From Candidatus Zambryskibacteria bacterium RIFCSPHIGHO2_01_FULL_46_25 (lineage in GTDB: Bacteria > Patescibacteriota > Minisyncoccia > Phycocordibacterales > Zambryskibacteraceae), in contig MHVH01000005.1 of the NCBI GenBank assembly GCA_001825155.1, positions 3,528-67,527 on the forward strand: a stretch of DNA of 64,000 nucleotides, read 5' to 3'. The notes beneath the pieces are model-generated. The model saw only the letters and a program-made list of their open reading frames with translations, had not been told where the DNA came from and ran no database searches. A program made the position numbers and the translations under genes. Shown one piece after another: positions 2,010 through 42,220 of this stretch (within the stretch, counting starts at the first letter, position 1; each line of letters starts with the position of its first letter).

Positions 2010-2010
2010 A

Positions 2011-3033
2011 ATGACCAGGATCTTCCTTTTAACTGATTATCGAAGACAATTTTATTCATCAACAAAAAGTAGAGGGGGTGGAATAGACCTTATTCGATTG
2101 GCAGAATATTTTAAAAAATTAAATTTTGATTTAGTGGTGATGCCTTTTTCTGAGGTTGATCTACGAACACAAAATTATAAAAACGAATGGGTTTTATATC
2201 AATCCTCCGAAGATCCCAGTTTGTTTTATAGAAGTTATCTAGACGATATTGTCTTGGGACTATTCCTACAAGGGGCGAGGCTTATTCCTGACATCTATAA
2301 GTTTCGTGCCCACCACAATAAGCATTTTATGGAGATTCTACGAGATGTATCTGATATACCAGAAATAAAAAATATCAAGTCTGATCGCTACGGCACATAC
2401 GAAGATTATCTAAAGAATATAAATAAATTTAAAAACAATTCCTATGTATTGAAATCAAGTAATACATCAAAAAGTCGTGGAGTGTTTTTACTAAATAATA
2501 TAAAAGATAAATTAACTATACCAAGGAAAATATCTAACACTTTTTCTCTCAGAAATATTCAATACTATTTTGAAAGGTTAAGAACGGGTAAAAAACCTTT
2601 ATATATATCAAACAACCGAAAAAAATTCATTCTCCAGCCCTATATTGCCAGTCTTCAGGGGGATTATCGTGTTGTAGTGTATGGCGACAAGTTCTACGTT
2701 CTATATAGATCCAATAGAAAAAATGATTTTCGAGCTAGTGGAAGTATGATGTTTAACTATGAAATCGAATTGCCTCCTAACCTTTTAAATTTCGCCAAGA
2801 AAGTTTTTGATGGTTTTGATGTCCCATATATAGCGCTTGATATTGGTGTAAAAGATAACAATTTCTTTGTGTTTGAATTTCAATTTCTATCTTTTGGTCA
2901 ATACACACTTGAAAAATCAAAGTTCTTCTATCGACTTGAGGATAAGGATTGGATTAAGATATTTGAAGAGCCAGATCTTGAAAGAGAAATTTCTATATCT
3001 GTAATGAAGTTTATTAGTAAGCCAAAAAACTAA
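2011..3033 (+). CDS. ATP-grasp fold protein (RimK/D-Ala-D-Ala-ligase-like), function unknown
   Basis: ATG at 2011 directly after the NUDIX stop (ATGA overlap). C-terminal motifs (YRVVVYGDKFY, ALDIGVKDNNFFVFEFQ) resemble ATP-grasp carboxylate-amine ligases. AT-rich. Confidence 0.5.
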   Translation: MTRIFLLTDYRRQFYSSTKSRGGGIDLIRLAEYFKKLNFDLVVMPFSEVDLRTQNYKNEWVLYQSSEDPSLFYRSYLDDIVLGLFLQGARLIPDIYKFRAHHNKHFMEILRDVSDIPEIKNIKSDRYGTYEDYLKNINKFKNNSYVLKSSNTSKSRGVFLLNNIKDKLTIPRKISNTFSLRNIQYYFERLRTGKKPLYISNNRKKFILQPYIASLQGDYRVVVYGDKFYVLYRSNRKNDFRASGSMMFNYEIELPPNLLNFAKKVFDGFDVPYIALDIGVKDNNFFVFEFQFLSFGQYTLEKSKFFYRLEDKDWIKIFEEPDLEREISISVMKFISKPKN

Positions 3034-3037
3034 ATAT

Positions 3038-4771
3038 ATGTGCGGAATAGCTGGTTTTATAGATAAAAGTAATAAATATGATATTGCTGAGAGGGAAGAT
3101 CTTCTTCATCGAATGTTGGGCTTGATTGAGCATAGGGGAGGTGACTCTATGGGTATTAAAACTATAGGTTCGGTTACGATGGGTCATACCAGGTTATCAA
3201 TATTAGACGCAGATAAGCGAGCCTATCAGCCTATGGCAAGTGATAACACGGTGCTCTCTTTTAATGGTGAGATATATAATCACTCAAAACTTCGAAGTCA
3301 ATACTGTAAGAGTCAAAAAATAAGTTCTTACTCAGACACCTCAACACTTTTTGCTTTGTTGCAAACACTTTCGTTAAAGAAAGTACTGGCTCTAATTCAC
3401 GGTATGTATGCGTTTAGTTTCTTAGACATGAGAAACAAATCATTAAGCCTTATTTTAGATAAACTAGCAATCAAACCATTGTATTATGTAGACACTCCAG
3501 ATTTTTTTGCTTGGGCTTCAGAAATAAAAGCTTTCAAAGCAATTCCCGGTTTTAAGTTTAAGTTTCGTGATGATGGCTTGGAAGAATTTATGTGTTTTAG
3601 ATATATTGTTGGTGAAAAAACTTTATTTAAGAATATATACAAGATGCAAGCTGGTGAAATCTTAACTTTTTCGCTTAAGACAAATTTTTTTAACAAAAAA
3701 ATATATTACAAACTACAGAAATCAAAAAAACAAAGTGGATCATCCTTGAGCAGACTCTTAAAAGATAGTGTTTATAATCATCTGATGAGTGATATTCCAA
3801 CTGGAATCCAATTGAGTGGCGGGGTAGATTCTAGTCTGGTAGCTTATTTTGCCCAGAAGTTTTCTAAAAAACCACTTCATACATTTTCTATAGGTTTAAA
3901 AAACAATAAGTGGAATGAGTTTATATATTCTGATATGGTGGCGAAACTTTTGAAAACCAACCATCATAAAATAACTTTTTCAAAACGAGACTTTATTAGG
4001 TTGTTTTCAAAGCTCACCTATCATCTAGATGAGCCTATTGTTCATCCAAACACTATTCCTATGTATTTACTAGCAAAAGAAGCAAGAAAATACACAAAAG
4101 TTCTATTAACTGGTGAAGGGGCGGACGAAGTATTTTATGGGTACAACAGATATTTTCAAAAGCTTTTGAAATCAAGTAAAGACATCCTTATTTCCAATTC
4201 ATTTACTGACCCGAAGTTTGTCTCGTCTATCTTAAAAAAGTTTAACCCCGTTTTCTTGAAAAGACTAGCAATCATAAAAAATGTGGAAGGAGCAAGTATA
4301 GTCAATAGGGTGAGCTATTATGACGTTTATAGTTATTTACCACATGTCCTATTGAGGCAAGATAAGGCGGGAATGGTAGCGAATATAGAAAATAGGGTGC
4401 CTTTTCTTTATGATTCTGTTTGTGAGTACGGCTATAATTCAAAAGACAAAGTTGGAAAATATGGTGGTAAGAACTCAATTAAAAAGATCGCACTAAAATA
4501 TCTTCCTAAAGATTTAGTCTTAAGAAAGAAAATAGGTTTTGGCTTACCAATTTCCAACTGGCTGAAAGACAATAGTGGGTTTTTACCACACCTTTCTAAT
4601 TTAAAAAATCATCAAATAATTAAAAGGTATTTTATTAAAAGTGAGATTAATCAGCTTATTAATGAACATGTAGCAGAGGATAATGATCACTCAAGTATAC
4701 TGTTTACTCTCATTAGTTTGATGACATGGTATGACATTTTTATAAACACTTCCTTACCACATAAACCATAA
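3038..4771 (+). CDS. asnB: asparagine synthase (glutamine-hydrolysing), AsnB family, copy 1
   Basis: N-terminal MCGIAG (class II glutamine amidotransferase nucleophile Cys2). PP-loop SGGVDSS. 577 aa. AT-rich. Confidence 0.85.
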   Translation: MCGIAGFIDKSNKYDIAEREDLLHRMLGLIEHRGGDSMGIKTIGSVTMGHTRLSILDADKRAYQPMASDNTVLSFNGEIYNHSKLRSQYCKSQKISSYSDTSTLFALLQTLSLKKVLALIHGMYAFSFLDMRNKSLSLILDKLAIKPLYYVDTPDFFAWASEIKAFKAIPGFKFKFRDDGLEEFMCFRYIVGEKTLFKNIYKMQAGEILTFSLKTNFFNKKIYYKLQKSKKQSGSSLSRLLKDSVYNHLMSDIPTGIQLSGGVDSSLVAYFAQKFSKKPLHTFSIGLKNNKWNEFIYSDMVAKLLKTNHHKITFSKRDFIRLFSKLTYHLDEPIVHPNTIPMYLLAKEARKYTKVLLTGEGADEVFYGYNRYFQKLLKSSKDILISNSFTDPKFVSSILKKFNPVFLKRLAIIKNVEGASIVNRVSYYDVYSYLPHVLLRQDKAGMVANIENRVPFLYDSVCEYGYNSKDKVGKYGGKNSIKKIALKYLPKDLVLRKKIGFGLPISNWLKDNSGFLPHLSNLKNHQIIKRYFIKSEINQLINEHVAEDNDHSSILFTLISLMTWYDIFINTSLPHKP

Positions 4772-6216: not shown

Positions 6217-8985
6217 ATGCAGGAATACGACCCGAAAAATATAGAAGCGAAGTGGCAGAAAGAGTGGGAGAAATCCGGTCTTTATCGTGCAGAGGATTCT
6301 TCCGAAAGGCCCAAGTATTACTCTCTCATTGAGTTTCCTTATCCTTCCGGCGATGGCTTGCATGTCGGTCATCCTCGCCCGTATATCGGCATGGATGTCA
6401 TTTCGAGGAAGAAGAGGATGGACGGCTTCAACGTGCTTTATCCCATAGGCTGGGACGCCTTCGGTTTGCCAACGGAGAATTATGCCATCAAGACCGGCCG
6501 TCCTCCGTCCGAAATTACGAAAGAGAATACCGACACATTCCGCAGACAAATCCAGTCTCTCGGAATATCTTTCGACTGGTCGCGGGAGATAAACACGACC
6601 GACCCGAAATATTACAAATGGACACAGTGGCTCTTCTTGAAATTTCTCGAACATGGTCTGGCGTACAAAGCAAAAATTCCGATTAATTGGTGTCCGCAGG
6701 ACAAAATTGGTTTAGCGAACGAAGAAGTCTTGTCCGTTGGCGGACAAGAAGTCTGCGAACGCTGCGGCACGCCGGTCGAACAGAGGGAGAAAGAGCAATG
6801 GATGCTTGCCATTATTAAGTACGCGGAGAAACTTTTGAGTGACCTGGACACTGTTGATTATCCCGAGCGCGTCAAAGTTCAGCAGAAAAATTGGATTGGA
6901 AAATCTGAAGGAGCGGAGATAGAATTTAAAATCAAAAATCAAAAACCAAAAATCAAAGTTTTTACCACTAGGCCGGATACCATTTTTGGCGCGACTTTTT
7001 TGGTAAAAGCGGGAAAAGAAGACAAATTCACGGGAAAGTATGCCATCAATCCGGCTACTAAAGAAGAGATTCCGATTTGGGAAGCAGAATATGTCATGGG
7101 CGACTACGGCACCGGAGCCATTATGGGCGTACCCGCGCATGATGAAAGGGATTATGATTTTGCTATTAAGCATGATTTGCAGATAAAACACGTAATAATG
7201 CCAGTTTTGCCGGATCCGACCAATCCTCATCGAACCGACAAAGAAGTCATTGTTCGCAAAGTTACTTTAAGCATCATCTATGATCCGAAAGCAAAGAAAT
7301 ATCTGTCTCTAAAATGGAAAAAAGTTCCGTGGAGAACTTTTATCACCGGTGGAATCGAAGAGGGGGAAGATCCGATACTGGCCGCAAGAAGGGAAATAGC
7401 GGAAGAAACAGGATACACGGATATTAATCTGGTTAGAGTCCTGGGAGGCAAGACCCAAGCGGAATTCTACGCGGAACACAAGGGCGTTAATCGCATCGCG
7501 TATGACACTTTGATCCTTTTTGAACTTGTAAGCGATGCGCGTCAGACAGTGGCAGCCGAAGAACTCGATAAACACGAGGTCGAATGGATAACCGAAGACG
7601 AATTTAAGAATGCGCGCATAAATCACTCGGAAATAGACATCATCAGGAAACGCATCGAGACCGGCAAGGATTTTTATATCGGAGAAGGCGTTCTCGTAGA
7701 TTCAGAAGGATTTGACGGTTCATCTAGCGAAGAAGCAAGGGGAAAGATTACCGAGAAATTTGGCAAAAAGGTTGTCAAATACAAACTCCGGGACTGGGTT
7801 TTTTCGAGGCAGAGATACTGGGGCGAGCCAATACCGGTTGTGCATTGCGCTAAGTGCGGCATTGTGCCGGTGCCGGAGAAAGATTTGCCGGTGCTGTTGC
7901 CGAAAGTCAAGAATTACGAGCCTACCGATACGGGCGAATCGCCGCTCGCGGCCATAGAAGAATGGGTCAATACATCGTGCCCTAAGTGCGGTGGCGATGC
8001 CAAGAGAGAGACCGACACCATGCCCAACTGGGCCGGTTCTTCGTGGTATTTCCTCGCTTATCTTTTCGACAAAAAGGGATTTGAGAATCCCGCATCCATT
8101 GAAAATTGGAAATTGCAAATTGAAAATTTCCGGCATTTCATGCCGGTTGACTGGTACAACGGTGGTATGGAGCACACGGTACTTCATCTTCTCTATTCGC
8201 GTTTCTGGAACAAATTCCTGTTTGATATTGGTCTTGTGCCGACAAGCGAGCCGTACAAGAAGCGCACTTCCCACGGTCTGATTCTCGCCGAAGGGGGAGA
8301 GAAGATGAGTAAGTCGAAGGGCAATGTCATTAATCCGGACGCAATCGTCGAGCGCTTCGGCGCGGATACCCTGCGGGTCTATGAGATGTTCATGGGCCCC
8401 TTCGAGCAGGCGATAGGGTGGAGTGAGGCATCGCTTGTCGGACCGAGAAAATTTTTAGAGAGGGTTTGGCGGTTGAAAGATAAAATTCACCAAGGCAAGG
8501 CCTTAGATACCAATTCCCAAGGCCTTGCCTTGGTTCATCGAACTATCAAGAAAGTGACTAATGATATCGAAGCGATGGGATTCAACACCGCAGTATCAAC
8601 CCTGATGATTTTTGCGAATGACTTGGAAAAAAGAAAAGGAATCTCTCAAGAAGAATACGAAACATTGCTAAAGTTGTTAGCGCCATTCGCGCCGCACATG
8701 ACAGAAGAATCGTGGCACCAACTTGGACATTCGATGTCCAAATCGATTCACGAAGAGCTCTGGCCCAAGTTCGATGAAACAAAACTTGTATCTGAGACTG
8801 TTACGATTGTGGTTCAGGTCAACGGCAAGGTACGTGCGAAGTTTACGACCCAGTCTATCGTGGAAGAAAAAGAGGCTATCGACTTGGCAATGAACTTACC
8901 CGAAACGCAAAAGTGGGTTGGGGATAAGAAGGTGGAGAAGACCATTTATGTGCCTGGAAAACTGGTAAATATCGTGGCAACTTGA
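6217..8985 (+). CDS. leuS: leucyl-tRNA synthetase with embedded Nudix-like domain
   Basis: HVGH (HIGH) motif, TTRPDT CP1 motif, KMSKS, C-terminal VQVNGKVRAK. About 140-aa insertion at aa 341-470 containing a perfect Nudix box GGIEEGEDPILAARREIAEETGY. Confidence 0.95.
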   Translation: MQEYDPKNIEAKWQKEWEKSGLYRAEDSSERPKYYSLIEFPYPSGDGLHVGHPRPYIGMDVISRKKRMDGFNVLYPIGWDAFGLPTENYAIKTGRPPSEITKENTDTFRRQIQSLGISFDWSREINTTDPKYYKWTQWLFLKFLEHGLAYKAKIPINWCPQDKIGLANEEVLSVGGQEVCERCGTPVEQREKEQWMLAIIKYAEKLLSDLDTVDYPERVKVQQKNWIGKSEGAEIEFKIKNQKPKIKVFTTRPDTIFGATFLVKAGKEDKFTGKYAINPATKEEIPIWEAEYVMGDYGTGAIMGVPAHDERDYDFAIKHDLQIKHVIMPVLPDPTNPHRTDKEVIVRKVTLSIIYDPKAKKYLSLKWKKVPWRTFITGGIEEGEDPILAARREIAEETGYTDINLVRVLGGKTQAEFYAEHKGVNRIAYDTLILFELVSDARQTVAAEELDKHEVEWITEDEFKNARINHSEIDIIRKRIETGKDFYIGEGVLVDSEGFDGSSSEEARGKITEKFGKKVVKYKLRDWVFSRQRYWGEPIPVVHCAKCGIVPVPEKDLPVLLPKVKNYEPTDTGESPLAAIEEWVNTSCPKCGGDAKRETDTMPNWAGSSWYFLAYLFDKKGFENPASIENWKLQIENFRHFMPVDWYNGGMEHTVLHLLYSRFWNKFLFDIGLVPTSEPYKKRTSHGLILAEGGEKMSKSKGNVINPDAIVERFGADTLRVYEMFMGPFEQAIGWSEASLVGPRKFLERVWRLKDKIHQGKALDTNSQGLALVHRTIKKVTNDIEAMGFNTAVSTLMIFANDLEKRKGISQEEYETLLKLLAPFAPHMTEESWHQLGHSMSKSIHEELWPKFDETKLVSETVTIVVQVNGKVRAKFTTQSIVEEKEAIDLAMNLPETQKWVGDKKVEKTIYVPGKLVNIVAT
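8098..8131. repeat. ATTGAAAATT-type 12-nt tandem repeat cluster, in-frame inside leuS (encodes IENWKLQIENF)
   Basis: attgaaaattggaaattgcaaattgaaaatttcc. Same repeat family as 32437..32470 and 34287..34319. Confidence 0.6.
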
Positions 8986-32474: not shown

Positions 32475-34319
32475 ATGTGCGGAATAACAGGGATCACAGA
32501 CAAAAACCTAGCGAAGAAAGAGTTCATCGAGAAGATGACCACTGTTATCGCCCACAGAGGCCCTGATGACGACGGTTTTCTCGTCGACGAACATGTCGCG
32601 CTTGGCATGAGGCGACTTTCAATTATTGATTTAGTCCACGGGGAACAGCCTATTGCGACGCCTGACGGTCGATATAAAATTTTCTTCAACGGTGAGATTT
32701 ACAACTATAAAGAATTAAAGAAAGAGTTGAATAATTATCAATATAAAACCGAGAGTGACACGGAAGTAATACTGGCAGGATTTGTGAAGTGGGGTCCGGA
32801 AGTTCTGAAAAAGCTCCGCGGAATGTTTGCCTTTTGTATTTATGATACGCAGGAGAAGAAAATTTTCTTGGCTCGGGATTTCTTCGGCATAAAACCCTTA
32901 TATTACTGGACACAGGCAAGGCCTATGGGTCCCATAGGCCTTGCCTGTGTAGCGTTTTCTTCCGAGATAAAAAGTTTCTTTGAGTTACCCGGATTCAAGC
33001 CGGAGGTGAATGATGCCGCCGTCTACAACTATCTTTCATACCAATACAATCCGCTGGAAGAAACTTTTTTCAAAAATGTTTTCAAGCTTCCTCCCGCGCA
33101 CTATCTGACGATCGATCTCAAGACTGGCAAGTGGGAGAAGAAGCGCTATTGGCAGTTCAAGTTCTCTCCAGAAGAAGCTCTGGACGAGGAGAATACGCGC
33201 AAAGAGATTCTAAATACGATGGAGGATTCGGTGGCGCATCATATGATTGCCGATGTGCCGGTGGGTTCCTTCTTGTCGGGTGGTATAGATTCCTCTATCA
33301 TCGCAACCTTGATGCAGAAAGTTCGTGGCGAGAAAAAAATAAAAACCTTTACCGTCGGTTTCAACTCTGTAAGCGAAGGTAGGGAAGCGAAAGAGACTTC
33401 AGAGCCGCTTGGTACAGACCATACGGAAATCAGTGTCGGGGCCGAAGAATACTTTGCCACCTTACCCAAGGCGGTGTGGCACTTCGACGAGCCGGTGGCG
33501 GACCCGTCGGCCATCGGGCTTTATTTCCTGGCTCGCGAGGCGAGAAAACACGTCAAGGTGGTGCTCTCGGGAGAAGGCGCCGACGAGCTCTTCGGTGGAT
33601 ACAACATTTATCTCGCGCCCATTGCCGCCGAGAGATTGCGCAAGTTTCCGAAATTCATTTTGAAATTAATCAGTGTACTGCCATTCCGCGGTAGAAACTA
33701 TGCTCAAAGAGCTCTCTTGAAGCTCGAAGACTGGTACATAGGCAATGCCTTAGTATTTAAGCCAGAAGAGATTAGGTCTCTCTGGCGAGACAACCCTATG
33801 TCAAGGGGCATCCTTGACACTCTATATCGAGAAGCGGCTGGGCTCAGCGATTCGACCAAGATGCAATACATAGACATAAACACTTGGCTAGTGGGTGACA
33901 TCCTCGCCAAGGCGGACAAGATGACTATGGCACATTCGCTCGAGCTCCGAGTGCCGTTTTTGGACAGCTCCGTAGCGACACTTGCTTCAAAGCTTCCGAA
34001 TAAATTTAAGTGGCATAATGGTGTAACGAAGTATCTCTTGCGGGAAGCTTTCAAAAATGTTTTGCCGGAATCCACGCGTAAGCGCAAGAAGCTCGGTTTC
34101 CCGACGCCGGTGCGTGAATGGATTACGAAAGAGAGAACGAATGTCATTCTCGAAAATCCATATATCAAATCGCATTTCGATGTTGCAAAAATCGAAGAAT
34201 TGATTAGCGACCATATCTCAAAAAGAACCGACAACTCGCGCAAAATCTACCTCCTCCTCATGCTCGCCCTCTGGTACAATGTATTTATTGAAAATTCTAA
34301 ATTGAAAATTGAAAATTAA
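32475..34319 (+). CDS. asnB: asparagine synthase (glutamine-hydrolysing), AsnB family, copy 2
   Basis: MCGITG N-terminus. SGGIDSS PP-loop. 614 aa. C-terminus (…IENSKLKIEN*) is encoded by the tandem repeat. Confidence 0.85.
   Translation: MCGITGITDKNLAKKEFIEKMTTVIAHRGPDDDGFLVDEHVALGMRRLSIIDLVHGEQPIATPDGRYKIFFNGEIYNYKELKKELNNYQYKTESDTEVILAGFVKWGPEVLKKLRGMFAFCIYDTQEKKIFLARDFFGIKPLYYWTQARPMGPIGLACVAFSSEIKSFFELPGFKPEVNDAAVYNYLSYQYNPLEETFFKNVFKLPPAHYLTIDLKTGKWEKKRYWQFKFSPEEALDEENTRKEILNTMEDSVAHHMIADVPVGSFLSGGIDSSIIATLMQKVRGEKKIKTFTVGFNSVSEGREAKETSEPLGTDHTEISVGAEEYFATLPKAVWHFDEPVADPSAIGLYFLAREARKHVKVVLSGEGADELFGGYNIYLAPIAAERLRKFPKFILKLISVLPFRGRNYAQRALLKLEDWYIGNALVFKPEEIRSLWRDNPMSRGILDTLYREAAGLSDSTKMQYIDINTWLVGDILAKADKMTMAHSLELRVPFLDSSVATLASKLPNKFKWHNGVTKYLLREAFKNVLPESTRKRKKLGFPTPVREWITKERTNVILENPYIKSHFDVAKIEELISDHISKRTDNSRKIYLLLMLALWYNVFIENSKLKIEN
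34287..34319. repeat. ATTGAAAATT-type tandem repeat cluster forming the 3-prime end of asnB copy 2
   Basis: attgaaaattctaaattgaaaattgaaaattaa. Confidence 0.6.
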
Positions 34320-34324
34320 TCCCC

Positions 34325-35377
34325 ATGGACATCTTAAAAATTATTAGTCCGACGGTTATGGCATTCTTTATCGGCATTTTCATCACGCCGTTCTTCACTA
34401 AGTATTTCTACAAATACAAAATGTGGAAGAAGTCTCCTCGCACCGAAGCGGGGGACATTACTTCCGACCACTTCAAGAAAATTCACAATACCGACTTGGA
34501 AATTTCAACTCCGCGCGTCGGTGGCATTATCATCTGGGCATCCGTATTTATCACAGTCGCGGTTATTTACATCCTCTCGATTGTTTTCCCATATGACGCG
34601 ATAGGGGAGCTGTCCTTCTTCAGCCGCTCGCAGACCGTGGTGCCTCTGGGAGCCTTCTTCCTCGCGGCACTCATCGGCCTCTTGGACGACTTACTGCAAA
34701 TATTCGGCCAGGGGAGTTATGCCAAAGATGCCTTGGTTTATCGCAAGGTAAAAATTGTTTTCGTCACGCTCATCGGCCTTGCTATCGCTACCTGGTTTTA
34801 CTTCAAGCTTGATTTCACTTCCATCCACATACCATTTGATGGGCCGTGGGAGCTCGGAATCTGGTTTATACCGTTTTTCGCTCTGGTAATGCTCGCCACC
34901 TTCTCCACTTCGGTCATAGACGGCCTCGACGGCCTGGCCGGGGGGGTGATGGCCTCTTGCTTCACCGCTTTTGCCGCCATCGCCTTCCTCGGAAGCCAGT
35001 ACGACATCTCGGCGCTCTCTGGGGCCATCGCCGGCGGCATATTGGCCTTCCTCTGGTTCAATGTGCCGCCGGCGAGATTCTACATGGGCGAGACCGGCAT
35101 GCTCGCGCTTACTGTGGCGCTCTCGGTTATCGCCTTTCTCACCGATTCTGTTCTCCTCTTGCCGGTAATCGCCTTACCGCTGGTGCTTACCACTCTCTCG
35201 GTTATTATCCAGATTGGTGTTTACAAAGTCTTCAATCATCGTCGGGTTTTCCTCGTCGCTCCGCTTCATCATCATTTCCAAGCTCTTGGTTGGCCGCGCG
35301 AGAAAGTGGTTATGCGCTACTGGATTGTTTCCGTTGTCTGCGCCATTACCGGAGTAATACTCTATCTTGTCAGCTAA
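34325..35377 (+). CDS. mraY: phospho-N-acetylmuramoyl-pentapeptide transferase
   Basis: Polytopic membrane protein. GLLDDL and PLHHHF motifs of MraY/GT4. Confidence 0.9.
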   Translation: MDILKIISPTVMAFFIGIFITPFFTKYFYKYKMWKKSPRTEAGDITSDHFKKIHNTDLEISTPRVGGIIIWASVFITVAVIYILSIVFPYDAIGELSFFSRSQTVVPLGAFFLAALIGLLDDLLQIFGQGSYAKDALVYRKVKIVFVTLIGLAIATWFYFKLDFTSIHIPFDGPWELGIWFIPFFALVMLATFSTSVIDGLDGLAGGVMASCFTAFAAIAFLGSQYDISALSGAIAGGILAFLWFNVPPARFYMGETGMLALTVALSVIAFLTDSVLLLPVIALPLVLTTLSVIIQIGVYKVFNHRRVFLVAPLHHHFQALGWPREKVVMRYWIVSVVCAITGVILYLVS

Positions 35378-36461
35378 AATCGCTCAGCTTAAAGAATGGT
35401 ATGAAGAGCACGAAAGAAGGCTGGCAACCTTCTCGCTCCTGTTCGGCTTCGTATTCGACTCACTCACTCTTACGCGCATTGATGCCTTGCAAGACAATCT
35501 CTGGCTTTTCGGCAACTTGGTGGTAATAGGTGTCTGCATAATCCTTCTTAACCGGCAGGAAAATGATGGCATACAAGACAAAGAAGTTTCGAAGCACTTC
35601 TGGCTGTATAACCTGCTCCAGTTCGGCTTCGGAAACATACTCGGCGGATTCTTTGTCCTCTACTTCAGAAGTGGCACGCTTGCCGTATCTTGGCCGTTTC
35701 TTCTCATCTTACTTGTCGCCATGGTGGCAAACGAGCTTTTCCAGAAGCGCTACGCTCGACTCGTTCTGCAAATCTCGTTTCTCTATCTCACTATTTACGC
35801 CTTCCTAATCTTTATTGTGCCTATAGCTCTTCACAGGATTGGGGCATGGATTTTCCTCGCGAGCGGGCTTGTAAGTCTCCTTGCCGTATGGCTCTTCCTC
35901 ATCGCTTTACATCAGTTCTCGAGAGAGAGGTTCAGGGAGAGCCGGGTCTCCATTGTCCGCTCGGTAGCCGCGATTTTCGCGGTTATGAACATTCTCTACT
36001 TCACCAATCTTATCCCGCCCATCCCACTCTCGCTCAAGGATGCCGGCATTTATCATAATGTGGAAAAATTACCGAGCGGCAGATACAGCGTGCTCGAAGA
36101 AGAGGAGAAGGGGATTATGAGTTTCTTCGACTTCCGCAAAGACATTCACCTGGTCTCCGGCAATACACTCTTTGCTTACAGCGCCATTTATTCTCCGTCC
36201 GACCTTGATACCCAGATTGTCCACGAATGGCAGCATTACGACGAGAAGCAGGGCGAGTGGCTTACAAGCACCACTATTCCACTCCGCCTCTCCGGCGGCA
36301 GGGTAGAGGGCTTCCGCACGTATTCGAGCAAATCGAGCCTTGCTCCAGGCCCATGGCGCGTAAACGTCTCGACTCCCAGGGGCCAACTATTGGGCCGCAT
36401 AAATTTCGAAATAGTTTCTGTCAATTCCTATCCGGCAATAAAAGCCGTTGTGAAGGATTAA
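35367..36461 (+). CDS. hypothetical polytopic membrane protein with C-terminal soluble domain
   Basis: About 6 TM helices, then a domain of about 130 aa. No motif recognised. Confidence 0.45.
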   Translation: MSAKIAQLKEWYEEHERRLATFSLLFGFVFDSLTLTRIDALQDNLWLFGNLVVIGVCIILLNRQENDGIQDKEVSKHFWLYNLLQFGFGNILGGFFVLYFRSGTLAVSWPFLLILLVAMVANELFQKRYARLVLQISFLYLTIYAFLIFIVPIALHRIGAWIFLASGLVSLLAVWLFLIALHQFSRERFRESRVSIVRSVAAIFAVMNILYFTNLIPPIPLSLKDAGIYHNVEKLPSGRYSVLEEEEKGIMSFFDFRKDIHLVSGNTLFAYSAIYSPSDLDTQIVHEWQHYDEKQGEWLTSTTIPLRLSGGRVEGFRTYSSKSSLAPGPWRVNVSTPRGQLLGRINFEIVSVNSYPAIKAVVKD

Positions 36462-36602
36462 CGGCTGACTCAAGGGTGGTTTTGTTATCCACAAGTTGAG
36501 AACATATTATCCCCACATGTCAAGTTGACATACTAACCACTAGGCGTAGGGTTTAAGACATTCTATATTTAGAAGTTTGTATTACACAATAAAATTAAAA
36601 AT

Positions 36603-38985
36603 ATGACAAAATTGCTGCGGGGGGGGGGCTTTACTAGGTAATTCATTCAAACTTCTACTTGTTTTCACAGTTGCCTTCGGCGGCTTTTTTGTTGCTAATT
36701 CGGCACAGGCGGCTACGATAAATGTCCCGGCTGAGCAGGCGACCATTCAAGCAGCAATTACTGCTGCGAATCCTGGCGACATAATTAATGTCGCGGCGGG
36801 GACATATCCCGAAAATGTTTCAATAAGTGGCAAGACAAATCTCACAATTCAGGGCGCTGGAATTTCAACCATCGTTGAACCAGCAAGCGGAATCGGTTTT
36901 GCAATCACGAATTCTAGCAACATAACAATCAAGAATCTCAAAATTCACACCGTCGGCACCGATGCACACGGCGTCTGGGTTGCTGGAACCCCTAGCGGTA
37001 GTGCGGTGACCGGTCTTACAGTGCAGGATGACACAATCGTTGTGGATGGCTACTCCAGCGGTATTTACGCTGGGTGGGTAGATACGACACCTCACTCGGG
37101 GTGGCTTATCGGTGGGTCAGGACACGGGAACACTATAGAAGTGAACTCTGGCGCAGGAGTTACAGGCGATGGAATGGATCTCTATGACGTATCTGACTCG
37201 GAAGTAAGTTACAACACGATTACGCTTACAAACCCGACTGATAGTACGCCCGTTATTTGGTCAAGTGAACTCTCCAATCTGAACAATCTAAAATTCGAGC
37301 ACAATACGATGAGCGGTTCTACCGGTAGCGAAGTATGGATTGGTACGGATTTCAGTAGCCAATCACCTGATACATCTATCTCGACCGTCTCCGTGTTGGG
37401 CAACACGTTCGGCAACTGGGGTGTGCGCGCGTTGAAACTCGAAGGATCTGTTACGGGGGTGTCCGTAAATGCCAACATCTTCCAGATGACTGCGGATACG
37501 ACTCAAGTAATCGGTGGTACCGCTGCGCCTAGTGCAACAGGGACGGGAAATACGTTTAATATTTCTCTCCCGGCAAAAATTCAAAAAGCGGTAGACGCGG
37601 CATTTGCCGGCGACACTATTAATGTTGCCGCAGGGACGTATGACGAACAGCTAACTGTAGATAAGGATGTAACGATCAGTGGCGTTTCCGGTGCGATTCT
37701 CCAGCCGACGGGAAACGATGATGCTTGGGACATCCAATTTGCCAGTGGCGGAAGCGGCGCGACCTTAGAGGGATTCACTCTCGACTTTAACGGTTCTGCT
37801 AATGATAGGGATGGAAGAGGTATAGGAATTAGCGATTCCGGCGGTCCGACAGTCACAAATGTCACGATTCAGAATAACGACATTACTATGGGTGTGGGTG
37901 TAGGTGCAGCGACGGGTGGACTGGAGGGCGTGGGTATTCAGACTGGCCTTAATGCCGATATAGGCGGTTTGCAAATACTGGATAACGACTTTCATGCCGG
38001 CAGTACTGTAATAACTGATGGCAATTCACAGGGTGAGGAAGGAATCTATGTAAATCCGAGCTCCGGTACCGGAGAGATAACCATATCCGGCAACACATTC
38101 GACGGAGAGTTGTTTACTGGCATCTCAATCGAGTCGGATAACGTCACAGTAAGCAACAATACCGTGACTCGTACGAGTATCGTCCAGAACACTAACGGCA
38201 TAAGAGTCAATGAATTCTACGGAAGTAAGACTTACAGCATAACCATAAGTGATAACGTTGTCAGCGGATTCGATAACGGCTTGCGTCTTGGTAGCGGAAG
38301 CGATGGGGGGTCGACATTAGCAGTAACCGTGGAGAATAACACGATTACTGACAACACCCGTGGTATTTGGGTCAGAAACGATGCAGTAGTAACCGCTTCA
38401 GGCAATACATTCTCAGGTAATACATCGAATCCCGAAATTCTTGCCGGAAGTGACGGAACTGTCAACGGAGTAAATGTCTGGGGAAATCCAGTCGTCACAA
38501 TCAACGGTGATGTAAATATGGGGGTTTGGGATAGAAACGGTTTCAGTGATCCTGGCGCTTCTGCTACAGACAGCTCTGGCGCTTCAGTTGATGTGGTTGT
38601 TACTGGCTCAGTAAACATATCCATAGCAGGCACATACACCTTGACTTATACGGCTACTGATATGTTTGGGAATACGGCATCTGCTGATCGCACAGTTACT
38701 GTAAGAATCGCAAGTGGCGGAGGCGGGGGGTCTTCGAACGGCGGAGGCGGCAGGAGTTCCGGAGCAGCTTCGCCTAGAGCTCTTCAGGCGGTGAATGCGG
38801 CCGGAGTAACTCTGCCCGTTCCCGCGGCCGGAGTCATAGGACAGGTTCTCGGTGCTTCTACTGTTAGTCCGGAGATACAGGCCCAAATTGATTCCATCAA
38901 ACTAACTCTAAGAGGTCTCATCTCACAACTCATTGCTCTGCTTCAACAGCAGCTTGCAGCCGCTATCGCGTCTCAGGGAAATTAG
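36603..38985 (+). CDS. secreted right-handed beta-helix repeat surface protein. Start codon out of frame as sequenced (G10 tract), putative phase-variable gene
   Basis: ATG 36603 then G10 (36619..36628). As sequenced: MTKLLRGGGFTR*. The frame from 36607 has no ATG, GTG or TTG before the signal peptide (…SFKLLLVFTVAFGGFFVANSAQA|ATINVPA). G9 would give one continuous ORF. Beta-helix repeats (NNTITDN, NVTIQNND…). Gly-rich C-terminal region. Confidence 0.6.
36619..36628. repeat. G10 homopolymeric tract between start codon and signal-peptide coding region
   Basis: Counted directly: ctgcGGGGGGGGGGcttt. Confidence 0.9.
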
Positions 38986-39008
38986 CAATTAATTCTGGTG
39001 CTTGGCCC

Positions 39009-39038
39009 AAAAAACCGCCTTGACTTAGGCGGTTTTTT
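39009..39038 (+). terminator. rho-independent terminator after the beta-helix protein gene
   Basis: AAAAAACCGCCTTGACTTAGGCGGTTTTTTGG. Confidence 0.75.
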
Positions 39039-39055
39039 GGTTAATAGTTAATCTT

Positions 39056-39958
39056 ATGATTTCTTGGCTCAAGAGGCACTTCATACCGCACGAGGGGAAT
39101 GGTCACAGACCTCATATTCTGCATAGGAAGAATGCCGCCCAACTCGTGGGAGTGGTGCTACTTTTCGAACTTGCGCTATTTATCTTGCCAGGGCTCAACT
39201 TCGCCGGCTTCGTCAATAGTCTCAATCTTGGCGCGGTCTTGCCCGGAGTGCTCTCGACGCTTACCAATGAGAAGAGGCTGGCGGAGAACATGCCACAGCT
39301 TCTCGAGAATCCTTTGCTTATGCAATCGGCCCAGCTCAAGGCGGAAGACATGGCGACAAAAAGTTATTTCGCTCACACTTCTCCGGAAGGGAAGACTCCG
39401 TGGTATTGGCTCAAGCAAGTTGGTTACTCGTATGCCTATGCCGGAGAGAACTTGGCGGTGAACTTCGTTGATTCCGAAGATGTGACGGAAGCTTGGATGA
39501 ATTCTCCAACTCATCGCGCCAATATCGTAAGCGGTGCTTACACTGAGATAGGGACAGGCATCGCGACGGGCGTGTACAAGGGCAATAATGCCGTTTTTGT
39601 CGCCCAGGTTTACGGCCGTCCGGCATTGTTTAACCCCTCGCTTCTACCGGCTGCGGCGCAGAAGTCTGCCGGTTTGAACCGAGTGGTGCAAGAAACGACA
39701 AGGTTTTTCCAAGAAGCGGCCGCATCGCCCAGGCGCACGACAGACGCCGTGCTCTTTAGTGTCATGGGCATCATTACTCTCGCGCTCCTTTTCAATATCT
39801 TTATCAAAATCAGGCACCAACATCCGGATCTTATATTAAACGGCGCGGTGGTCATGGTGGTAATTCTCGCTCTCCACATCGGCAACGGATATGTTTCAAA
39901 AGATCATGGCTTGGAAACGTCTTTTATCGCCTACAACGCCTCAGAAGTAGAAGAATAG
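39056..39958 (+). CDS. CAP/SCP/PR1-like (YkwD-type) domain protein with N- and C-terminal TM segments
   Basis: …SYFAHTSPEGKTPWYW…YAGENLA…WMNSPTHRANI… CAP-domain signature. Confidence 0.7.
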   Translation: MISWLKRHFIPHEGNGHRPHILHRKNAAQLVGVVLLFELALFILPGLNFAGFVNSLNLGAVLPGVLSTLTNEKRLAENMPQLLENPLLMQSAQLKAEDMATKSYFAHTSPEGKTPWYWLKQVGYSYAYAGENLAVNFVDSEDVTEAWMNSPTHRANIVSGAYTEIGTGIATGVYKGNNAVFVAQVYGRPALFNPSLLPAAAQKSAGLNRVVQETTRFFQEAAASPRRTTDAVLFSVMGIITLALLFNIFIKIRHQHPDLILNGAVVMVVILALHIGNGYVSKDHGLETSFIAYNASEVEE

Positions 39959-39977
39959 TGTTATAATTTCGCACAAG

Positions 39978-41078
39978 ATGCGAAGCAGGATAAAAGTCGA
40001 TAAGCCTTTTTTGGTCATCACGATTATACTCATCGTGGCGGGCTTTTTTATTTTCTCCTCCGCTTCTTTGGGCCTCTTGGCGAAGGAGAGTTCAAACTAT
40101 TCGAGTGTCGCGTTCTCGCAAACCGTCCTCGGCCTTTTCCTCGGCACGATTGCCATGATTCTGGCGGCCAGGCTCGATTACAAAATATGGAAAAAATGGG
40201 CTTTCTATCTCCTCATCCTGGCGGTAATTTTAAATATCATTGTTCTCATTCCTGACATCGGTTTCGAGCATGGCGGCGCGCGAAGATGGCTACGGGTAGG
40301 AGAGCTTTCTCTCCAGCCGGCCGAGGTACTCAAGTTCGCCTTCATCATCTACTTTGCCGCCTGGGCGGCGGGAGTTAAGGAAAAGATATCTACCTTCTCC
40401 ATGGGCCTCTTGCCCCTCATGACTCTCCTTGGCCTCTGTGGCATTCTCCTTCTTCTCCAGCCGGACACGGACAACTACATGGTCATCGTCGCGACCGGCA
40501 TGGGCATGTTCATAGCGGCGGGCGGTCGATGGCGGCACGTGTTAATACTGGGACTTATAGGACTTATAGGACTTATAGGACTTGCGGTAGCAAGGCCGTA
40601 TGTCATGCAGAGGATTACGACTTTTCTCAATCCGACATTGGACTCTCTTGGCTCCGGTTATCAGATACAGCAAAGCCTTATCGCTATCGGTTCCGGAGGT
40701 CTCTTCGGCACCGGTTTTGGTCAGAGTATTCAGAAATTTACCTATCTCCCGGAGCCGGTGGGCGATTCTATCTTTGCCGTGGCCGGAGAAGAGTTCGGCT
40801 TCGTGGGTTCGGTTTTGCTTATCGCGATATTCACCCTTTTTGCCGTGCGAGGGCTCAAAATCGCCGGCAATATGGAAGATAGGTTCGGTAGACTGGTGGT
40901 TGCTGGAATTGTTATAATGATTATCTCCCAGGCATTCGTCAATATAGGCGCCATGCTAGGAGTAATACCGCTTTCAGGCATTACCTTGCCCTTCGTCTCG
41001 CATGGCGGCACCTCTCTTTTCTTGAGCCTGTTTGAGATTGGCGTAATCCTTTCAGTATCCAAATCGCAAAAATCATGA
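39978..41078 (+). CDS. ftsW: SEDS-family peptidoglycan glycosyltransferase FtsW/RodA
   Basis: 10-TM SEDS topology and conserved C-terminal …GVIPLSGITLPFVSHGGTSL… Contains a 3x 9-bp tandem repeat (ggacttata) encoding LIGLIGLIG. Confidence 0.85.
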   Translation: MRSRIKVDKPFLVITIILIVAGFFIFSSASLGLLAKESSNYSSVAFSQTVLGLFLGTIAMILAARLDYKIWKKWAFYLLILAVILNIIVLIPDIGFEHGGARRWLRVGELSLQPAEVLKFAFIIYFAAWAAGVKEKISTFSMGLLPLMTLLGLCGILLLLQPDTDNYMVIVATGMGMFIAAGGRWRHVLILGLIGLIGLIGLAVARPYVMQRITTFLNPTLDSLGSGYQIQQSLIAIGSGGLFGTGFGQSIQKFTYLPEPVGDSIFAVAGEEFGFVGSVLLIAIFTLFAVRGLKIAGNMEDRFGRLVVAGIVIMIISQAFVNIGAMLGVIPLSGITLPFVSHGGTSLFLSLFEIGVILSVSKSQKS

Positions 41079-42220
41079 GAATTTTATTTACCGGCGGAGG
41101 CACAGGAGGACACTTCTACCCGATTATCTCCATTGCCGATGAGCTCAAAGCTCTCGCCAAGGACAAGAGGCTTCTTGAGCTCGAGCTCTTCTACATGTCG
41201 CCTACGCCATATGATGCAGGAACGCTCTTCGAGCACGGCCTCGAATACAGGAAGAATAGCGCCGGCAAATTGCGCCGCTCGAAATCCGGCTTGAACCTTT
41301 TCCGCAATTTCTTCGACTTATTTAAAACAGGGTGGGGGATTATCACGTCGGTTGTGCAGGTCTTCAATCTCTATCCAGACGTGGTCTTTGGCAAGGGCGG
41401 GTACGCGAGTTTCCCGGCGCTTCTGGCGGCAAGAATCTTGCGCATACCGGTCGTCATCCACGAATCCGACAGCGTGCCGGGCAAGGTTAACTTATGGGCG
41501 GGCAAATTCGCCCAAAAGGTCGCCGTTTCCTACAAAGAAGCTGGGCAGTTTTTTCCCCCGGAAAAAACTGCCTATACCGGCCAGCCTGTGCGCCGAGAAA
41601 TCGCTTCGCCGCTTCTCGAGGGAGCGAGAGAATTTCTGGGCCTCAAGGAGGATGTGCCGGTCGTCCTCATCCTTGGTGGCTCTCAAGGCTCGCAGAAAAT
41701 CAATGCCGCCGTTCTCGAAGCTTTGAAAGAACTTTTGGAGAAATACGCCGTCATCCATCAGACGGGAGGCAATAACTTCGCCGAGGTCAAAGCGACAGCC
41801 GAGGCGGTGCTCTACGGCTCAACGCACAAAGACCGCTACAAGCCATTCGATTATCTCAACACTCTGGCCATGCGCATGGCGGCCGGCCTCGCCACCATAG
41901 TGGTTTCCCGCGCCGGCTCCGCCATATTCGAAATTGCTTCGTGGGGCGCGCCATCGATTATCATCCCCATTAACGAGAAGGTGAGCCACGACCAGCACTC
42001 TAACGCCTTCGCCTATGCTCGCTCCGGTGCCTGTACCGTGGTGGAAGAAATTAATCTCTCTCCCAACATCCTCATATCCGAGATCGACAGGCTTATAGGA
42101 GACAAAATACTTACGGAAAACATGAAGGCGGCCGCTAAAGTATTCTACAAACCCGACGCCGCCAAGCTCGTGGCGGAAGAGATACTAAAGATAGCATTGG
42201 AGCATGAGATAGAGAAATAG
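41075..42220 (+). CDS. murG: undecaprenyldiphospho-muramoylpentapeptide beta-N-acetylglucosaminyltransferase
   Basis: MRILFTGGGTGGHFYP N-terminus (GT28). Confidence 0.9.
   Translation: MRILFTGGGTGGHFYPIISIADELKALAKDKRLLELELFYMSPTPYDAGTLFEHGLEYRKNSAGKLRRSKSGLNLFRNFFDLFKTGWGIITSVVQVFNLYPDVVFGKGGYASFPALLAARILRIPVVIHESDSVPGKVNLWAGKFAQKVAVSYKEAGQFFPPEKTAYTGQPVRREIASPLLEGAREFLGLKEDVPVVLILGGSQGSQKINAAVLEALKELLEKYAVIHQTGGNNFAEVKATAEAVLYGSTHKDRYKPFDYLNTLAMRMAAGLATIVVSRAGSAIFEIASWGAPSIIIPINEKVSHDQHSNAFAYARSGACTVVEEINLSPNILISEIDRLIGDKILTENMKAAAKVFYKPDAAKLVAEEILKIALEHEIEK

What the first reader, a model, noticed from the sequence alone, without database searches (positions are those of the whole stretch)
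36603..38985. Out-of-frame G10 tract separates the ATG from the signal peptide of a large beta-helix surface protein (candidate slipped-strand phase-variable adhesin)
Seen directly: ATG 36603 is followed 13 nt later by GGGGGGGGGG (36619..36628). As sequenced the ATG frame stops after 12 codons (MTKLLRGGGFTR*). The long ORF, which encodes a textbook signal peptide (…SFKLLLVFTVAFGGFFVANSAQA|ATINVPA) and about 750 aa of right-handed beta-helix repeats, lies in the -1 frame. That frame has no ATG, GTG or TTG between an in-frame TGA at 36604 and the signal peptide. Removing one G (G9) yields one seamless ORF, MTKLLRGGALLGNSFKLLLVF…. Homopolymer-length switching at the 5-prime end of a surface-protein gene is the canonical contingency-locus architecture in host-associated bacteria (established knowledge). 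Such a locus in a reduced-genome bacterium that likely depends on cell-surface contact would be notable (inference). A homopolymer basecalling error is the trivial alternative.
Basis: partly seen in the sequence, partly recalled or inferred. Interest (0 to 1): 0.8.

Follow-up and report, generated by a model that had tools for sequence, protein, structure and literature searches.

The report
Poly-G frameshift switch in surface-protein gene
A run of ten Gs just after the start codon knocks a large secreted beta-helix protein of a groundwater Parcubacteria (CPR) bacterium out of frame; the run is real rather than a sequencing error, and a related gene has the same run in in-frame and out-of-frame lengths, so this is probably an on/off switch caught in the off state.

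Summary
ATG 36603 is followed by G10 (36619-36628). The ATG frame stops after 12 codons. The signal peptide and about 750 further codons lie in the next frame, which has no canonical start before GTG 37006. G6, G9 or G12 would restore one ORF (792-794 aa).

The source is Parcubacteria GW2011_GWA1_47_10 (Rifle aquifer). Twelve other contigs from different assemblies all carry exactly G10, and no other homopolymer of 7 or more inside a window ORF breaks a frame. A base-calling error is therefore very unlikely. No in-frame allele of this locus was found anywhere.

A diverged homolog (about 73% nt identity, homologous upstream region) has a poly-G run at the same codons. It occurs as G8 (in frame, 724 aa, 2 contigs) and G6 (out of frame, 5 contigs) on otherwise near-identical DNA, and G6 sits on two SNP backgrounds.

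The best reading is a slipped-strand contingency locus whose consensus state is OFF (confidence about 0.55). Rivals are a recently inactivated gene and rescue by transcriptional or ribosomal slippage. "Adhesin" is not shown: the fold is a generic double beta-helix, closest to polysaccharide lyases and tailspikes. It is a candidate new member of a known kind of switch, in a lineage where I found no earlier report.

The parts
36469..36534 (+). Upstream block conserved with the homologous gene. It contains TTATCCACA (36485-36493) and the perfect palindrome ATGTCAA-G-TTGACAT (36517-36531). It is a possible promoter or operator region.
   Evidence: blastn gives 74% identity over 66 nt to the region upstream of the homolog in L007; alignment A2; sequence read.
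36568..36595 (+). Promoter-like site TTTAGA-16 nt-TAAAAT. The second hexamer ends 7 nt before ATG 36603, which would give a leaderless or very short-leader mRNA (inference).
   Evidence: Consensus scan, 9 of 12 matches. Many other window genes have a TATAAT-like box just upstream of the ATG, and only 6 of 49 have an SD-like motif.
36603..36641 (+). Start codon ATG (36603-36605) and the 12-codon frame-0 reading MTKLLRGGGFTR, ending at TAA 36639-36641. This is the product as sequenced (G10, OFF).
36619..36628 (+). G10 homopolymer on the coding strand, at codons 6-9 in the n-region of the signal peptide. This is the candidate slipped-strand switch. In-frame lengths are G6, G9 and G12.
   Evidence: Identical G10 in 12 other contigs. 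Replaced by a 10-N scaffold gap in L073.
36628..36711 (+). Rest of the signal-peptide coding sequence in the +1 frame (residues A9-A36 of the G9 product). It comprises n-region charges K3, R6 and K16, the h-region LLLVFTVAFGGFFVA, and the c-region NSAQA, with predicted cleavage before A37.
   Evidence: Translation and hydropathy. Heuristic only; SignalP was not available.
36712..38985 (+). Mature protein coding region plus stop. Beta-helix domain 1 is at about 36715-37527, beta-helix domain 2 at about 37537-38466, the Ig-like domain at about 38497-38703, and the Gly-rich disordered linker and long C-terminal helix at 38707-38982.
   Evidence: Pfam Beta_helix 2.3e-17, Bact_surface_Ig-like 1.5e-15, NosD 1.4e-09. 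AlphaFold2 model with mean pLDDT 82.9 and pTM 0.76.
37006..38985 (+). The 659-aa ORF annotated in public records (KKU49999.1). It starts at an internal GTG inside beta-helix domain 1 and lacks the signal peptide, so it is a gene-calling consequence of the frameshift, not a plausible native product.
   Evidence: There is no SD or -10-like context upstream of GTG 37006.

Best explanation
This is a candidate translational contingency locus. A poly-G tract sits in the n-region of the signal-peptide coding sequence of a secreted or surface double beta-helix protein. It gains or loses G residues by slipped-strand mispairing during replication. At G6, G9 or G12 the ATG at 36603 reads through into the signal peptide and the 790-odd-aa protein is exported. 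At G10, the consensus state in every sample seen, translation ends after 12 codons and the protein is not made. Shown here: the architecture, the reality and reproducibility of G10, the lack of any alternative start, and tract-length alleles (one in-frame length and one out-of-frame length) at the same codons of a homologous gene. Inferred: that this locus itself switches reversibly within the population, and that switching is adaptive. It could, for example, vary a carbohydrate-binding or carbohydrate-cleaving surface protein that is exposed to hosts, phages or grazers.
For: (1) G10 on the coding strand, 16 nt after the ATG, toggles a full-length product against a 12-codon one. (2) It is not an assembly artefact. 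Twelve distinct contigs from different samples and assemblers all have G10, including contigs found through the neighbouring DUF2914 gene, which does not depend on tract state. All 13 other homopolymers of 7 or more inside window ORFs leave frames intact. (3) The homologous gene (cluster of P0002/P0128) shares about 73% nt identity in the common half and a homologous upstream block. It carries ATG-5 codons-poly-G at the same place. It is G8 and in frame (MKKLLTGGVVIG..., 724 aa) in L007 and L008. It is G6 and out of frame in L009, L010, L011, L072 and L074. About 4 kb of flanking DNA is otherwise identical apart from one 4-SNP cluster, and G6 occurs on both SNP haplotypes. G8 and G6 both occur among original scaffolds made by the same pipeline (L007 and L074). 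(4) The tract is kept in both genes although neighbouring codons have diverged (TTG CTG CGG against TTA TTA ACG), and GGG is the rarest Gly codon at 13.5%. (5) It meets published in-silico criteria for poly-G phase-variable genes: at least 7 G, in the ORF, G on the coding strand, and tract variability between members of a homology group (PMC6321876). (6) The 2.36-kb downstream frame is fully intact and folds into a confident model. (7) In one sample the scaffold has a 10-N gap exactly at the tract (L073). This is compatible with read-level length heterogeneity but is not proof of it.
Against: No tract-length variant and no in-frame allele of this locus exists in any of the 13 assemblies, or as a protein in the collection searched. 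At consensus level the locus looks fixed OFF. The homolog alleles differ by 2 nt, and no intermediate was seen in a trustworthy contig (L012 with G7 is error-ridden). Many of the assemblies come from one field site, and some may re-use the same reads, so independence is less than the count suggests. More distant homologs have no 5' tract, and only two genes with this design were found, so a genome-wide set of such loci is not shown. No read-level, transcript or protein data were available.
Confidence: 0.55

Rival explanations
1. This is a recently inactivated gene, a pseudogene or one locked OFF. The poly-G tract is simply a mutational hot spot. A +1 slip became fixed in this population, and the gene is on its way to decay, with no adaptive reversible switching.
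For: Every assembly of this locus has the same out-of-frame length, and no in-frame allele is known. In the homolog the out-of-frame G6 allele is also the commoner one, 5 contigs against 2.
Against: The 786-codon downstream frame, the signal peptide and the upstream conserved block are all intact. A tract this long is expected to revert frequently (established for G8-G11 tracts in Campylobacter and Neisseria, PMC6321876). A poly-G run is retained at the same codons in two genes only about 73% identical, against codon bias. The homolog exists in both states on near-identical backgrounds.
Confidence: 0.25
2. The gene is expressed from the G10 template by recoding. Either RNA polymerase slips on the G run and makes some G9 transcripts, or the ribosome shifts +1 on GGG GGG GGC. 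The result is a constitutive low level of full-length protein rather than DNA-level switching.
For: Both out-of-frame alleles seen, window G10 and homolog G6, are in the same 'in-frame length plus one nucleotide' configuration. A homopolymer lets tRNA-Gly or the nascent RNA re-pair perfectly after a 1-nt slip (inference). G10 is stable across samples.
Against: The homolog also exists as a directly in-frame G8 allele, so the frameshift configuration is not conserved as it is at programmed sites. No stimulatory element such as a rare or stop codon at the shift site, or a downstream structure, was identified. The terminator-like hairpin at 36669-36685 lies 40 nt downstream, inside the signal-peptide h-region. 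To my own knowledge, efficient transcriptional slippage is documented mainly for A/T runs. Two of three possible offsets being equal is weak evidence (chance about 1/2).
Confidence: 0.1
3. This is a sequencing or assembly artefact: the true genome has G9 and the extra G is a consensus error.
For: Homopolymers are error-prone. One scaffold has a gap at the tract, which shows that the region is hard to assemble.
Against: Exactly G10 appears in 12 other contigs built by at least three pipelines from different samples. No other homopolymer in the window disrupts a gene. These are short-read assemblies (MEGAHIT-style k141 contig names); to my own knowledge the original Rifle data are Illumina, for which a uniform +1 error in a consensus is not expected. 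Different gene callers all had to pick internal starts, giving 659, 654 and 603 aa.
Confidence: 0.03

Closest known systems
Neisseria gonorrhoeae/meningitidis pilC1/pilC2, which phase-vary through a poly-G tract in the signal-peptide coding region
   Same: A homo-guanine tract lies inside the signal-peptide coding region of an exported surface-associated protein. Frameshifts in the tract switch expression on and off independently of RecA (PMC5354566). Paralogous copies can be in different states, as the window gene and its homolog are here.
   Different: PilC is a type IV pilus tip or biogenesis protein (PilY1 family), not a beta-helix protein. Switching there is shown experimentally, whereas here it is inferred from assemblies. 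The organism here is a groundwater CPR bacterium, not a human pathogen.
Campylobacter jejuni poly-G contingency genes (the 'phasome')
   Same: Poly-G of 8-11, mostly 9 or 10, on the coding strand within ORFs. Many control surface structures. The in-silico criteria are at least 7 G, location in the ORF, and variability among homology-group members (PMC6321876). The window tract meets the first two, and its homology group meets the third.
   Different: Campylobacter has tens of such loci per genome. Only one G/C run of 8 or more exists in this 64-kb window, and only two genes of this design were found. Campylobacter isolates commonly differ in tract length at a given locus, but this locus shows G10 in all assemblies.
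Opa proteins of Neisseria and HopZ/SabA-type outer-membrane proteins of Helicobacter pylori (own knowledge)
   Same: Repeat-length changes inside the signal-peptide coding region shift the mature protein in or out of frame. The leader tolerates in-frame length changes.
   Different: Those repeats are CTCTT pentamers or CT dinucleotides, not a homopolymer, and the proteins are unrelated outer-membrane beta-barrels.
Hypervariable PTD-repeat gene of a Gracilibacterium (CPR)
   Same: It is a CPR surface or extracellular protein gene for which repeat-mediated (slipped-strand) variability was proposed from metagenomic assemblies, and it also broke the assembly (PMC6851277).
   Different: That locus has in-frame 9-nt repeats that vary protein sequence and length. 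It is not a frameshifting homopolymer giving ON/OFF expression.
Two-domain right-handed beta-helix polysaccharide lyases (PL6 alginate lyases such as AlyGC), RbmB, and phage tailspikes
   Same: These are the best structural matches to the predicted mature protein. PL6 enzymes also have two tandem beta-helix domains. Pfam Beta_helix and NosD score above their thresholds.
   Different: TM-scores are only about 0.2 and sequence identity is 10-14%. Catalytic residues were not examined. The window protein adds an Ig-like domain, a Gly-rich linker and a C-terminal helix shared with other CPR proteins.

Membership tests
SSR-mediated translational phase-variable gene (contingency locus) | A homopolymeric G/C tract at or above the length shown to be hypermutable (at least 7-8 nt) | tested here: met
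   G10 at 36619-36628. Thresholds are from PMC6321876.
SSR-mediated translational phase-variable gene (contingency locus) | The tract lies within the reading frame, so that changes not divisible by 3 toggle a full-length product against a truncated one | tested here: met
   G6, G9 and G12 give 792-794 aa, and all other lengths give 9-13 codons. There is no alternative start before 37006.
SSR-mediated translational phase-variable gene (contingency locus) | Tract length differs between closely related genomes or samples at this same locus | tested here: not met
   All 12 other contigs spanning the tract have G10, and no in-frame product is in the protein collection. This holds at consensus level only. 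One scaffold has an N-gap at the tract.
SSR-mediated translational phase-variable gene (contingency locus) | Tract length varies among members of the homology group | tested here: met
   The homolog is G8 (L007, L008) or G6 (L009, L010, L011, L072, L074) on near-identical DNA, and G6 is found on two SNP haplotypes. The window gene is G10.
SSR-mediated translational phase-variable gene (contingency locus) | High-frequency, reversible switching within a clonal population, with matching change in expression | not testable with these tools
   This needs read pile-ups, single-cell or amplicon data, or culture. The organism is uncultivated.
Programmed +1 ribosomal frameshift gene (prfB-type) | The frameshift configuration is conserved among homologs and has a defined stimulatory context | tested here: not met
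   The homolog has a directly in-frame G8 allele encoding the full protein. No in-frame stop or rare codon sits at the shift site.
Sec-type cleavable signal peptide | A positively charged n-region, a hydrophobic h-region of about 10-15 residues, and a small-x-small (AXA) c-region | tested here: met
   K3, R6 and K16; LLLVFTVAFGGFFVA with Kyte-Doolittle 9-mer means up to 2.2; AQA before A37. This is heuristic; SignalP was not run.
Right-handed parallel beta-helix proteins (Pfam Beta_helix/NosD; pectate-lyase-like fold) | A profile match above the curated threshold and a predicted beta-helix fold | tested here: met
   PF13229 scores 63.5 bits (cut-off 25.9) and PF05048 scores 38.2 bits (cut-off 23.6). 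The model shows two beta-helix domains at pLDDT mostly above 90. Foldseek hits to beta-helix enzymes and tailspikes reach E down to 2.5e-08.
Bacterial adhesin | Demonstrated or specifically predicted binding to a host or substrate surface | not testable with these tools
   Only one adhesin (PfbA, rank 48) is among the fold matches, and lyases, epimerases and tailspikes dominate. No binding data exist.

The most novel reading that the evidence does not exclude
CPR/Patescibacteria, which are ultra-small, reduced-genome and presumed episymbiotic bacteria, use classical homopolymer slipped-strand phase variation to switch a family of secreted beta-helix, carbohydrate-active surface proteins on and off. 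In this reading the window gene (G10, OFF) and its homolog (G8 ON, G6 OFF) are the first two members of a CPR 'phasome' in a non-pathogen groundwater setting. That would imply bet-hedging against phages, hosts or grazers well outside the host-adapted pathogens where contingency loci were defined.
Probability: 0.45. Interest if true: 0.65.

Novelty: new member of a known kind. Interest (0 to 1): 0.5.

Why it matters
Homopolymer contingency loci are textbook biology for host-adapted pathogens such as Neisseria, Haemophilus, Campylobacter and Helicobacter. Full-text searches of the held library found no report of them in CPR/Patescibacteria. The nearest case is an in-frame repeat gene in a Gracilibacterium.

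If confirmed, this locus and its homolog would show that uncultivated groundwater episymbionts also hedge their bets on surface-protein expression. They would also give a simple marker, tract length in read pile-ups across the Rifle time series, for following selection on a CPR surface protein in situ.

There is a practical point too. Public annotation of this gene (KKU49999.1 at 659 aa, OHA90261.1 at 654 aa, OHB06799.1 at 603 aa) is an N-terminally truncated artefact that hides the signal peptide and part of the first beta-helix domain.

Tried and rejected
(1) Pattern scan of JGI metagenome contigs with a variable gap across the tract: 0 hits, because the collection does not hold this locus. 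It therefore gave no information on tract length.

(2) Protein-guided scan of GTDB species representatives: 49 loci, all distant (51% identity or less). None has a G/C run of 8 or more at the 5' end of the homologous gene, and the source genome was not retrieved. The tract is therefore specific to the two close genes, and no wider family was found.

(3) Protein-guided scan of metagenome contigs: only two loci, both the homolog. One was new (L072, G6).

(4) Searching for an ON product: the 793-aa query found no full-length or N-terminal-fragment protein at high identity, and cluster members are all 659 aa or shorter.

(5) Alternative starts: there is no ATG/GTG/TTG in frame before 37006, and the rare starts (ATA/ATT/ATC) begin only after the signal peptide. 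Rejected.

(6) L012 (homolog, G7) was discounted, because the contig has clustered substitutions near its ends and around the tract that look like assembly errors.

(7) Sequence search of the PDB gave only a weak Ig-like domain hit. The fold search gave generic beta-helix hits with TM about 0.2, so no specific function could be assigned.

(8) Rfam and tRNA scans of the window found nothing near the locus.

(9) The idea that the run is explained by base composition or codon bias was rejected. GGG is the rarest Gly codon, and only 4 of 108 Gly-Gly pairs use GGGGGG.
Full report
WHAT IS THERE. ATG 36603-36605 is followed 13 nt later by ten Gs (36619-36628). The ATG frame reads MTKLLRGGGFTR and stops at TAA 36639-36641. 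The next frame has a TGA at 36604-36606, overlapping the ATG, and is then open to the stop at 38983-38985. Its first ATG/GTG/TTG is GTG 37006. Rare initiators (ATA/ATT/ATC) occur in that frame only from 36718, after the signal peptide. Rebuilding the gene with every tract length from G5 to G14 shows that G6, G9 and G12 give a single ORF of 792-794 aa. All other lengths terminate after 9-13 codons. The restored N-terminus has a typical secretion signal: charges at K3, R6 and K16, a hydrophobic core LLLVFTVAFGGFFVA, and AQA before A37 (heuristic only). The tract lies in the n-region, where adding or losing a glycine should be tolerated.

IS IT MORE THAN CHANCE. G runs in the window fall off as 20 (length 5), 3 (length 6) and 1 (length 7), and then comes this run of 10. 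Dinucleotide-preserving shuffles are more permissive: a G9 pattern gives a mean of 0.41 matches, and 12 of 100 shuffles reach 2 or more. The run alone is therefore only mildly improbable, with p of about 0.1. Its position adds the weight. It is on the coding strand, in the first 26 nt of a secreted-protein ORF. It is made of the rarest glycine codon (GGG 13.5%; only 4 of 108 Gly-Gly pairs are GGGGGG). A diverged homolog has a poly-G run at the same codons (see below).

SOURCE AND REALITY OF G10. The annotated product (659 aa from GTG 37006) is KKU49999.1 of Parcubacteria group bacterium GW2011_GWA1_47_10. Identical sequences with other arbitrary internal starts (654, 603 and 365 aa) are annotated in Candidatus Zambryskibacteria MAGs. 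I fetched contigs that carry this product. To avoid selecting for the broken state, I also fetched contigs that carry the upstream DUF2914 gene and the JGI copies. Twelve distinct contigs span the tract. They come from different samples and pipelines: original Anantharaman-style scaffolds, MEGAHIT k141 re-assemblies, an NCBI MAG and two JGI assemblies. Every one has exactly G10. Thirteen other homopolymers of 7 or more lie inside ORFs of the window, and none breaks a frame. A consensus homopolymer error is therefore very unlikely. The search with the 793-aa restored protein found no full-length or N-terminal-fragment protein, so no assembly anywhere has this locus in frame. One scaffold from a slightly different strain (L073, 3 SNPs over 5.8 kb) has a 10-N gap that replaces window positions 36611-36629. 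The assembler broke exactly at the tract in that sample. This could reflect mixed tract lengths or poor reads through poly-G, and I cannot tell which.

THE KEY COMPARATIVE RESULT. The nearest non-identical relative is a gene cluster (P0002, P0128-P0131) from the same aquifer. Its C-terminal half is 62% identical in protein and about 73% in DNA. Its N-terminal domain is unrelated, and a 66-nt upstream block is 74% identical to window 36469-36534. Its 5' end has the same design: ATG AAA AAA TTA TTA AC(G)n TAG TTA TCG. In L007 and L008 the tract is G8, and the ORF runs from that ATG through a signal peptide (MKKLLTGGVVIGLAFLFSGVVQA...) to give 724 aa. In L009, L010, L011 (=L071), L072 and L074 the tract is G6, the ATG frame stops after 16 codons, and gene callers start at a downstream TTG to give 698 or 694 aa. 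Across about 4 kb the good contigs differ only by this 2-nt indel and one cluster of four SNPs far downstream. G6 is found with both SNP haplotypes, so tract length is uncoupled from the linked background. G8 (L007) and G6 (L074) both occur among scaffolds from the same original pipeline, which rules out an assembler effect. L012 (G7) is littered with clustered substitutions, so I discount it. A poly-G run at this position is therefore demonstrably length-polymorphic in this gene family, and the in-frame form is a normal directly translated gene.

THE PROTEIN. Pfam finds Beta_helix, NosD and a bacterial-surface Ig-like domain. An AlphaFold2 model built on 26 homologs (pLDDT 82.9, pTM 0.76) shows two tandem right-handed beta-helix domains, an Ig-like domain, a disordered Gly-rich linker and a long C-terminal helix. 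The linker-plus-helix module is shared with P0128 and the otherwise different P0005. Foldseek against the PDB returns only generic beta-helix matches with TM about 0.2. These are two-domain PL6 alginate lyases, the RbmB lyase, mannuronan epimerase and phage tailspikes, with the pneumococcal adhesin PfbA at rank 48. The protein is best described as an exported carbohydrate-binding or carbohydrate-cleaving beta-helix protein. 'Adhesin' is one possibility, not a finding.

START-SITE CONTEXT. Only 6 of 49 ORFs in the window have an SD-like motif, and many have a TATAAT-like box a few nucleotides before the ATG. ATG 36603 fits this pattern: a promoter-like TTTAGA-16-TAAAAT ends 7 nt upstream. GTG 37006 has no such context and lies inside the first beta-helix domain. 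ATG 36603 is therefore the credible start. A leaderless transcript would make an internal rescue start even less likely (inference).

MECHANISM AND RIVALS. The best-supported explanation is a slipped-strand contingency locus whose population consensus is OFF (confidence 0.55). It meets the structural criteria used for poly-G phase-variable genes (at least 7 G, in frame, G on the coding strand; PMC6321876), and its homology group shows tract variability. The closest named precedent is Neisseria pilC, which switches through a homo-guanine tract in its signal-peptide region (PMC5354566). The defining behaviour, reversible length change within a population at this locus, was not observed: between-assembly variation at this locus was tested and not found. 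Membership therefore remains 'candidate'.

The main rival is a recently fixed frameshift, a gene on the way to decay (0.25). Against it are the intact 2.36-kb frame and signal peptide, the retention of the tract against codon bias in two genes about 73% identical, and the two-state homolog. A second rival is rescue from the G10 template by transcriptional slippage or +1 ribosomal frameshifting (0.10). It is not excluded, because both OFF alleles (window G10, homolog G6) are 'in-frame plus one'. However, the in-frame G8 allele shows that the frameshift configuration is not conserved. An artefact is now very unlikely (0.03).

NOVELTY AND INTEREST. The mechanism is a known kind. What would be new is its occurrence in CPR/Patescibacteria from groundwater. 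Full-text searches found no such report, and the nearest case is an in-frame 9-mer repeat gene in a Gracilibacterium (PMC6851277). I rate it a (candidate) new member of a known kind, with interest 0.5. It is a well-supported, testable lead with a clear decisive experiment (read pile-ups over the tract across the Rifle samples), but it is not yet a demonstration, and a specialist would not find the mechanism itself surprising.

Noticed in passing
window 36517-36531: A perfect palindrome ATGTCAA-G-TTGACAT lies about 75 nt upstream of ATG 36603, inside the upstream block conserved with the homolog (which has TGTCGACTTGACA). It looks like an operator for a dimeric regulator, or it overlaps a -35 element.
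   Followed up: partly
window 36485-36493: An exact DnaA-box consensus TTATCCACA lies in the same conserved upstream block (TTATACACA in the homolog). Its significance is unknown, and it may be coincidence.
   Followed up: no
window-wide; examples at 17981, 27554, 39978 and 43903: Only 6 of 49 ORFs have an SD-like 4-mer upstream, and many have a TATAAT-like box 6-12 nt before the ATG. This suggests widespread leaderless or very short-leader mRNAs in this Parcubacteria genome.
   Followed up: partly
window 6217-8985: The leucyl-tRNA synthetase has a NUDIX hydrolase domain (Pfam PF00293, E 4e-13, residues 353-473) inserted next to or within the editing domain. This is an unusual domain fusion.
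   Followed up: no
window 2001-4000 (ORFs 1927-3033 and 3038-4771): This segment has 32% GC against about 49% for the window. It holds an ORF with no Pfam match, a second asparagine-synthase paralog (the other is at 32475-34319), and four 7-nt A/T runs. It may have been acquired horizontally.
   Followed up: partly
window 38707-38982; also the C-termini of P0128 and P0005: A conserved C-terminal module is shared by otherwise different CPR beta-helix proteins. It consists of a Gly-rich disordered linker, a GQVLGA motif and a roughly 35-residue amphipathic helix. No Pfam family matches it, and there is no LPXTG motif although a sortase gene lies near the homolog. It may be a lineage-specific anchoring or oligomerisation module.
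   Followed up: partly
window 37579-38371 compared with L007 1862-2654: The two genes are domain mosaics. The shared half is about 73% identical in DNA, with one 56-nt exact block at window 37681, while the N-terminal domains are unrelated. This suggests domain swapping or recombination within the family.
   Followed up: partly
window 34325-42220: Three exported-protein genes (DUF2914, the beta-helix gene and a CAP/SCP-family gene) sit between mraY and ftsW-murG in the cell-division and cell-wall cluster.
   Followed up: no
L073 positions about 925-945 (equivalent to window 36611-36629): A scaffold from sample SAMN03202998 has a 10-N gap exactly at the poly-G tract, so the assembly broke there in that sample only.
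   Followed up: partly
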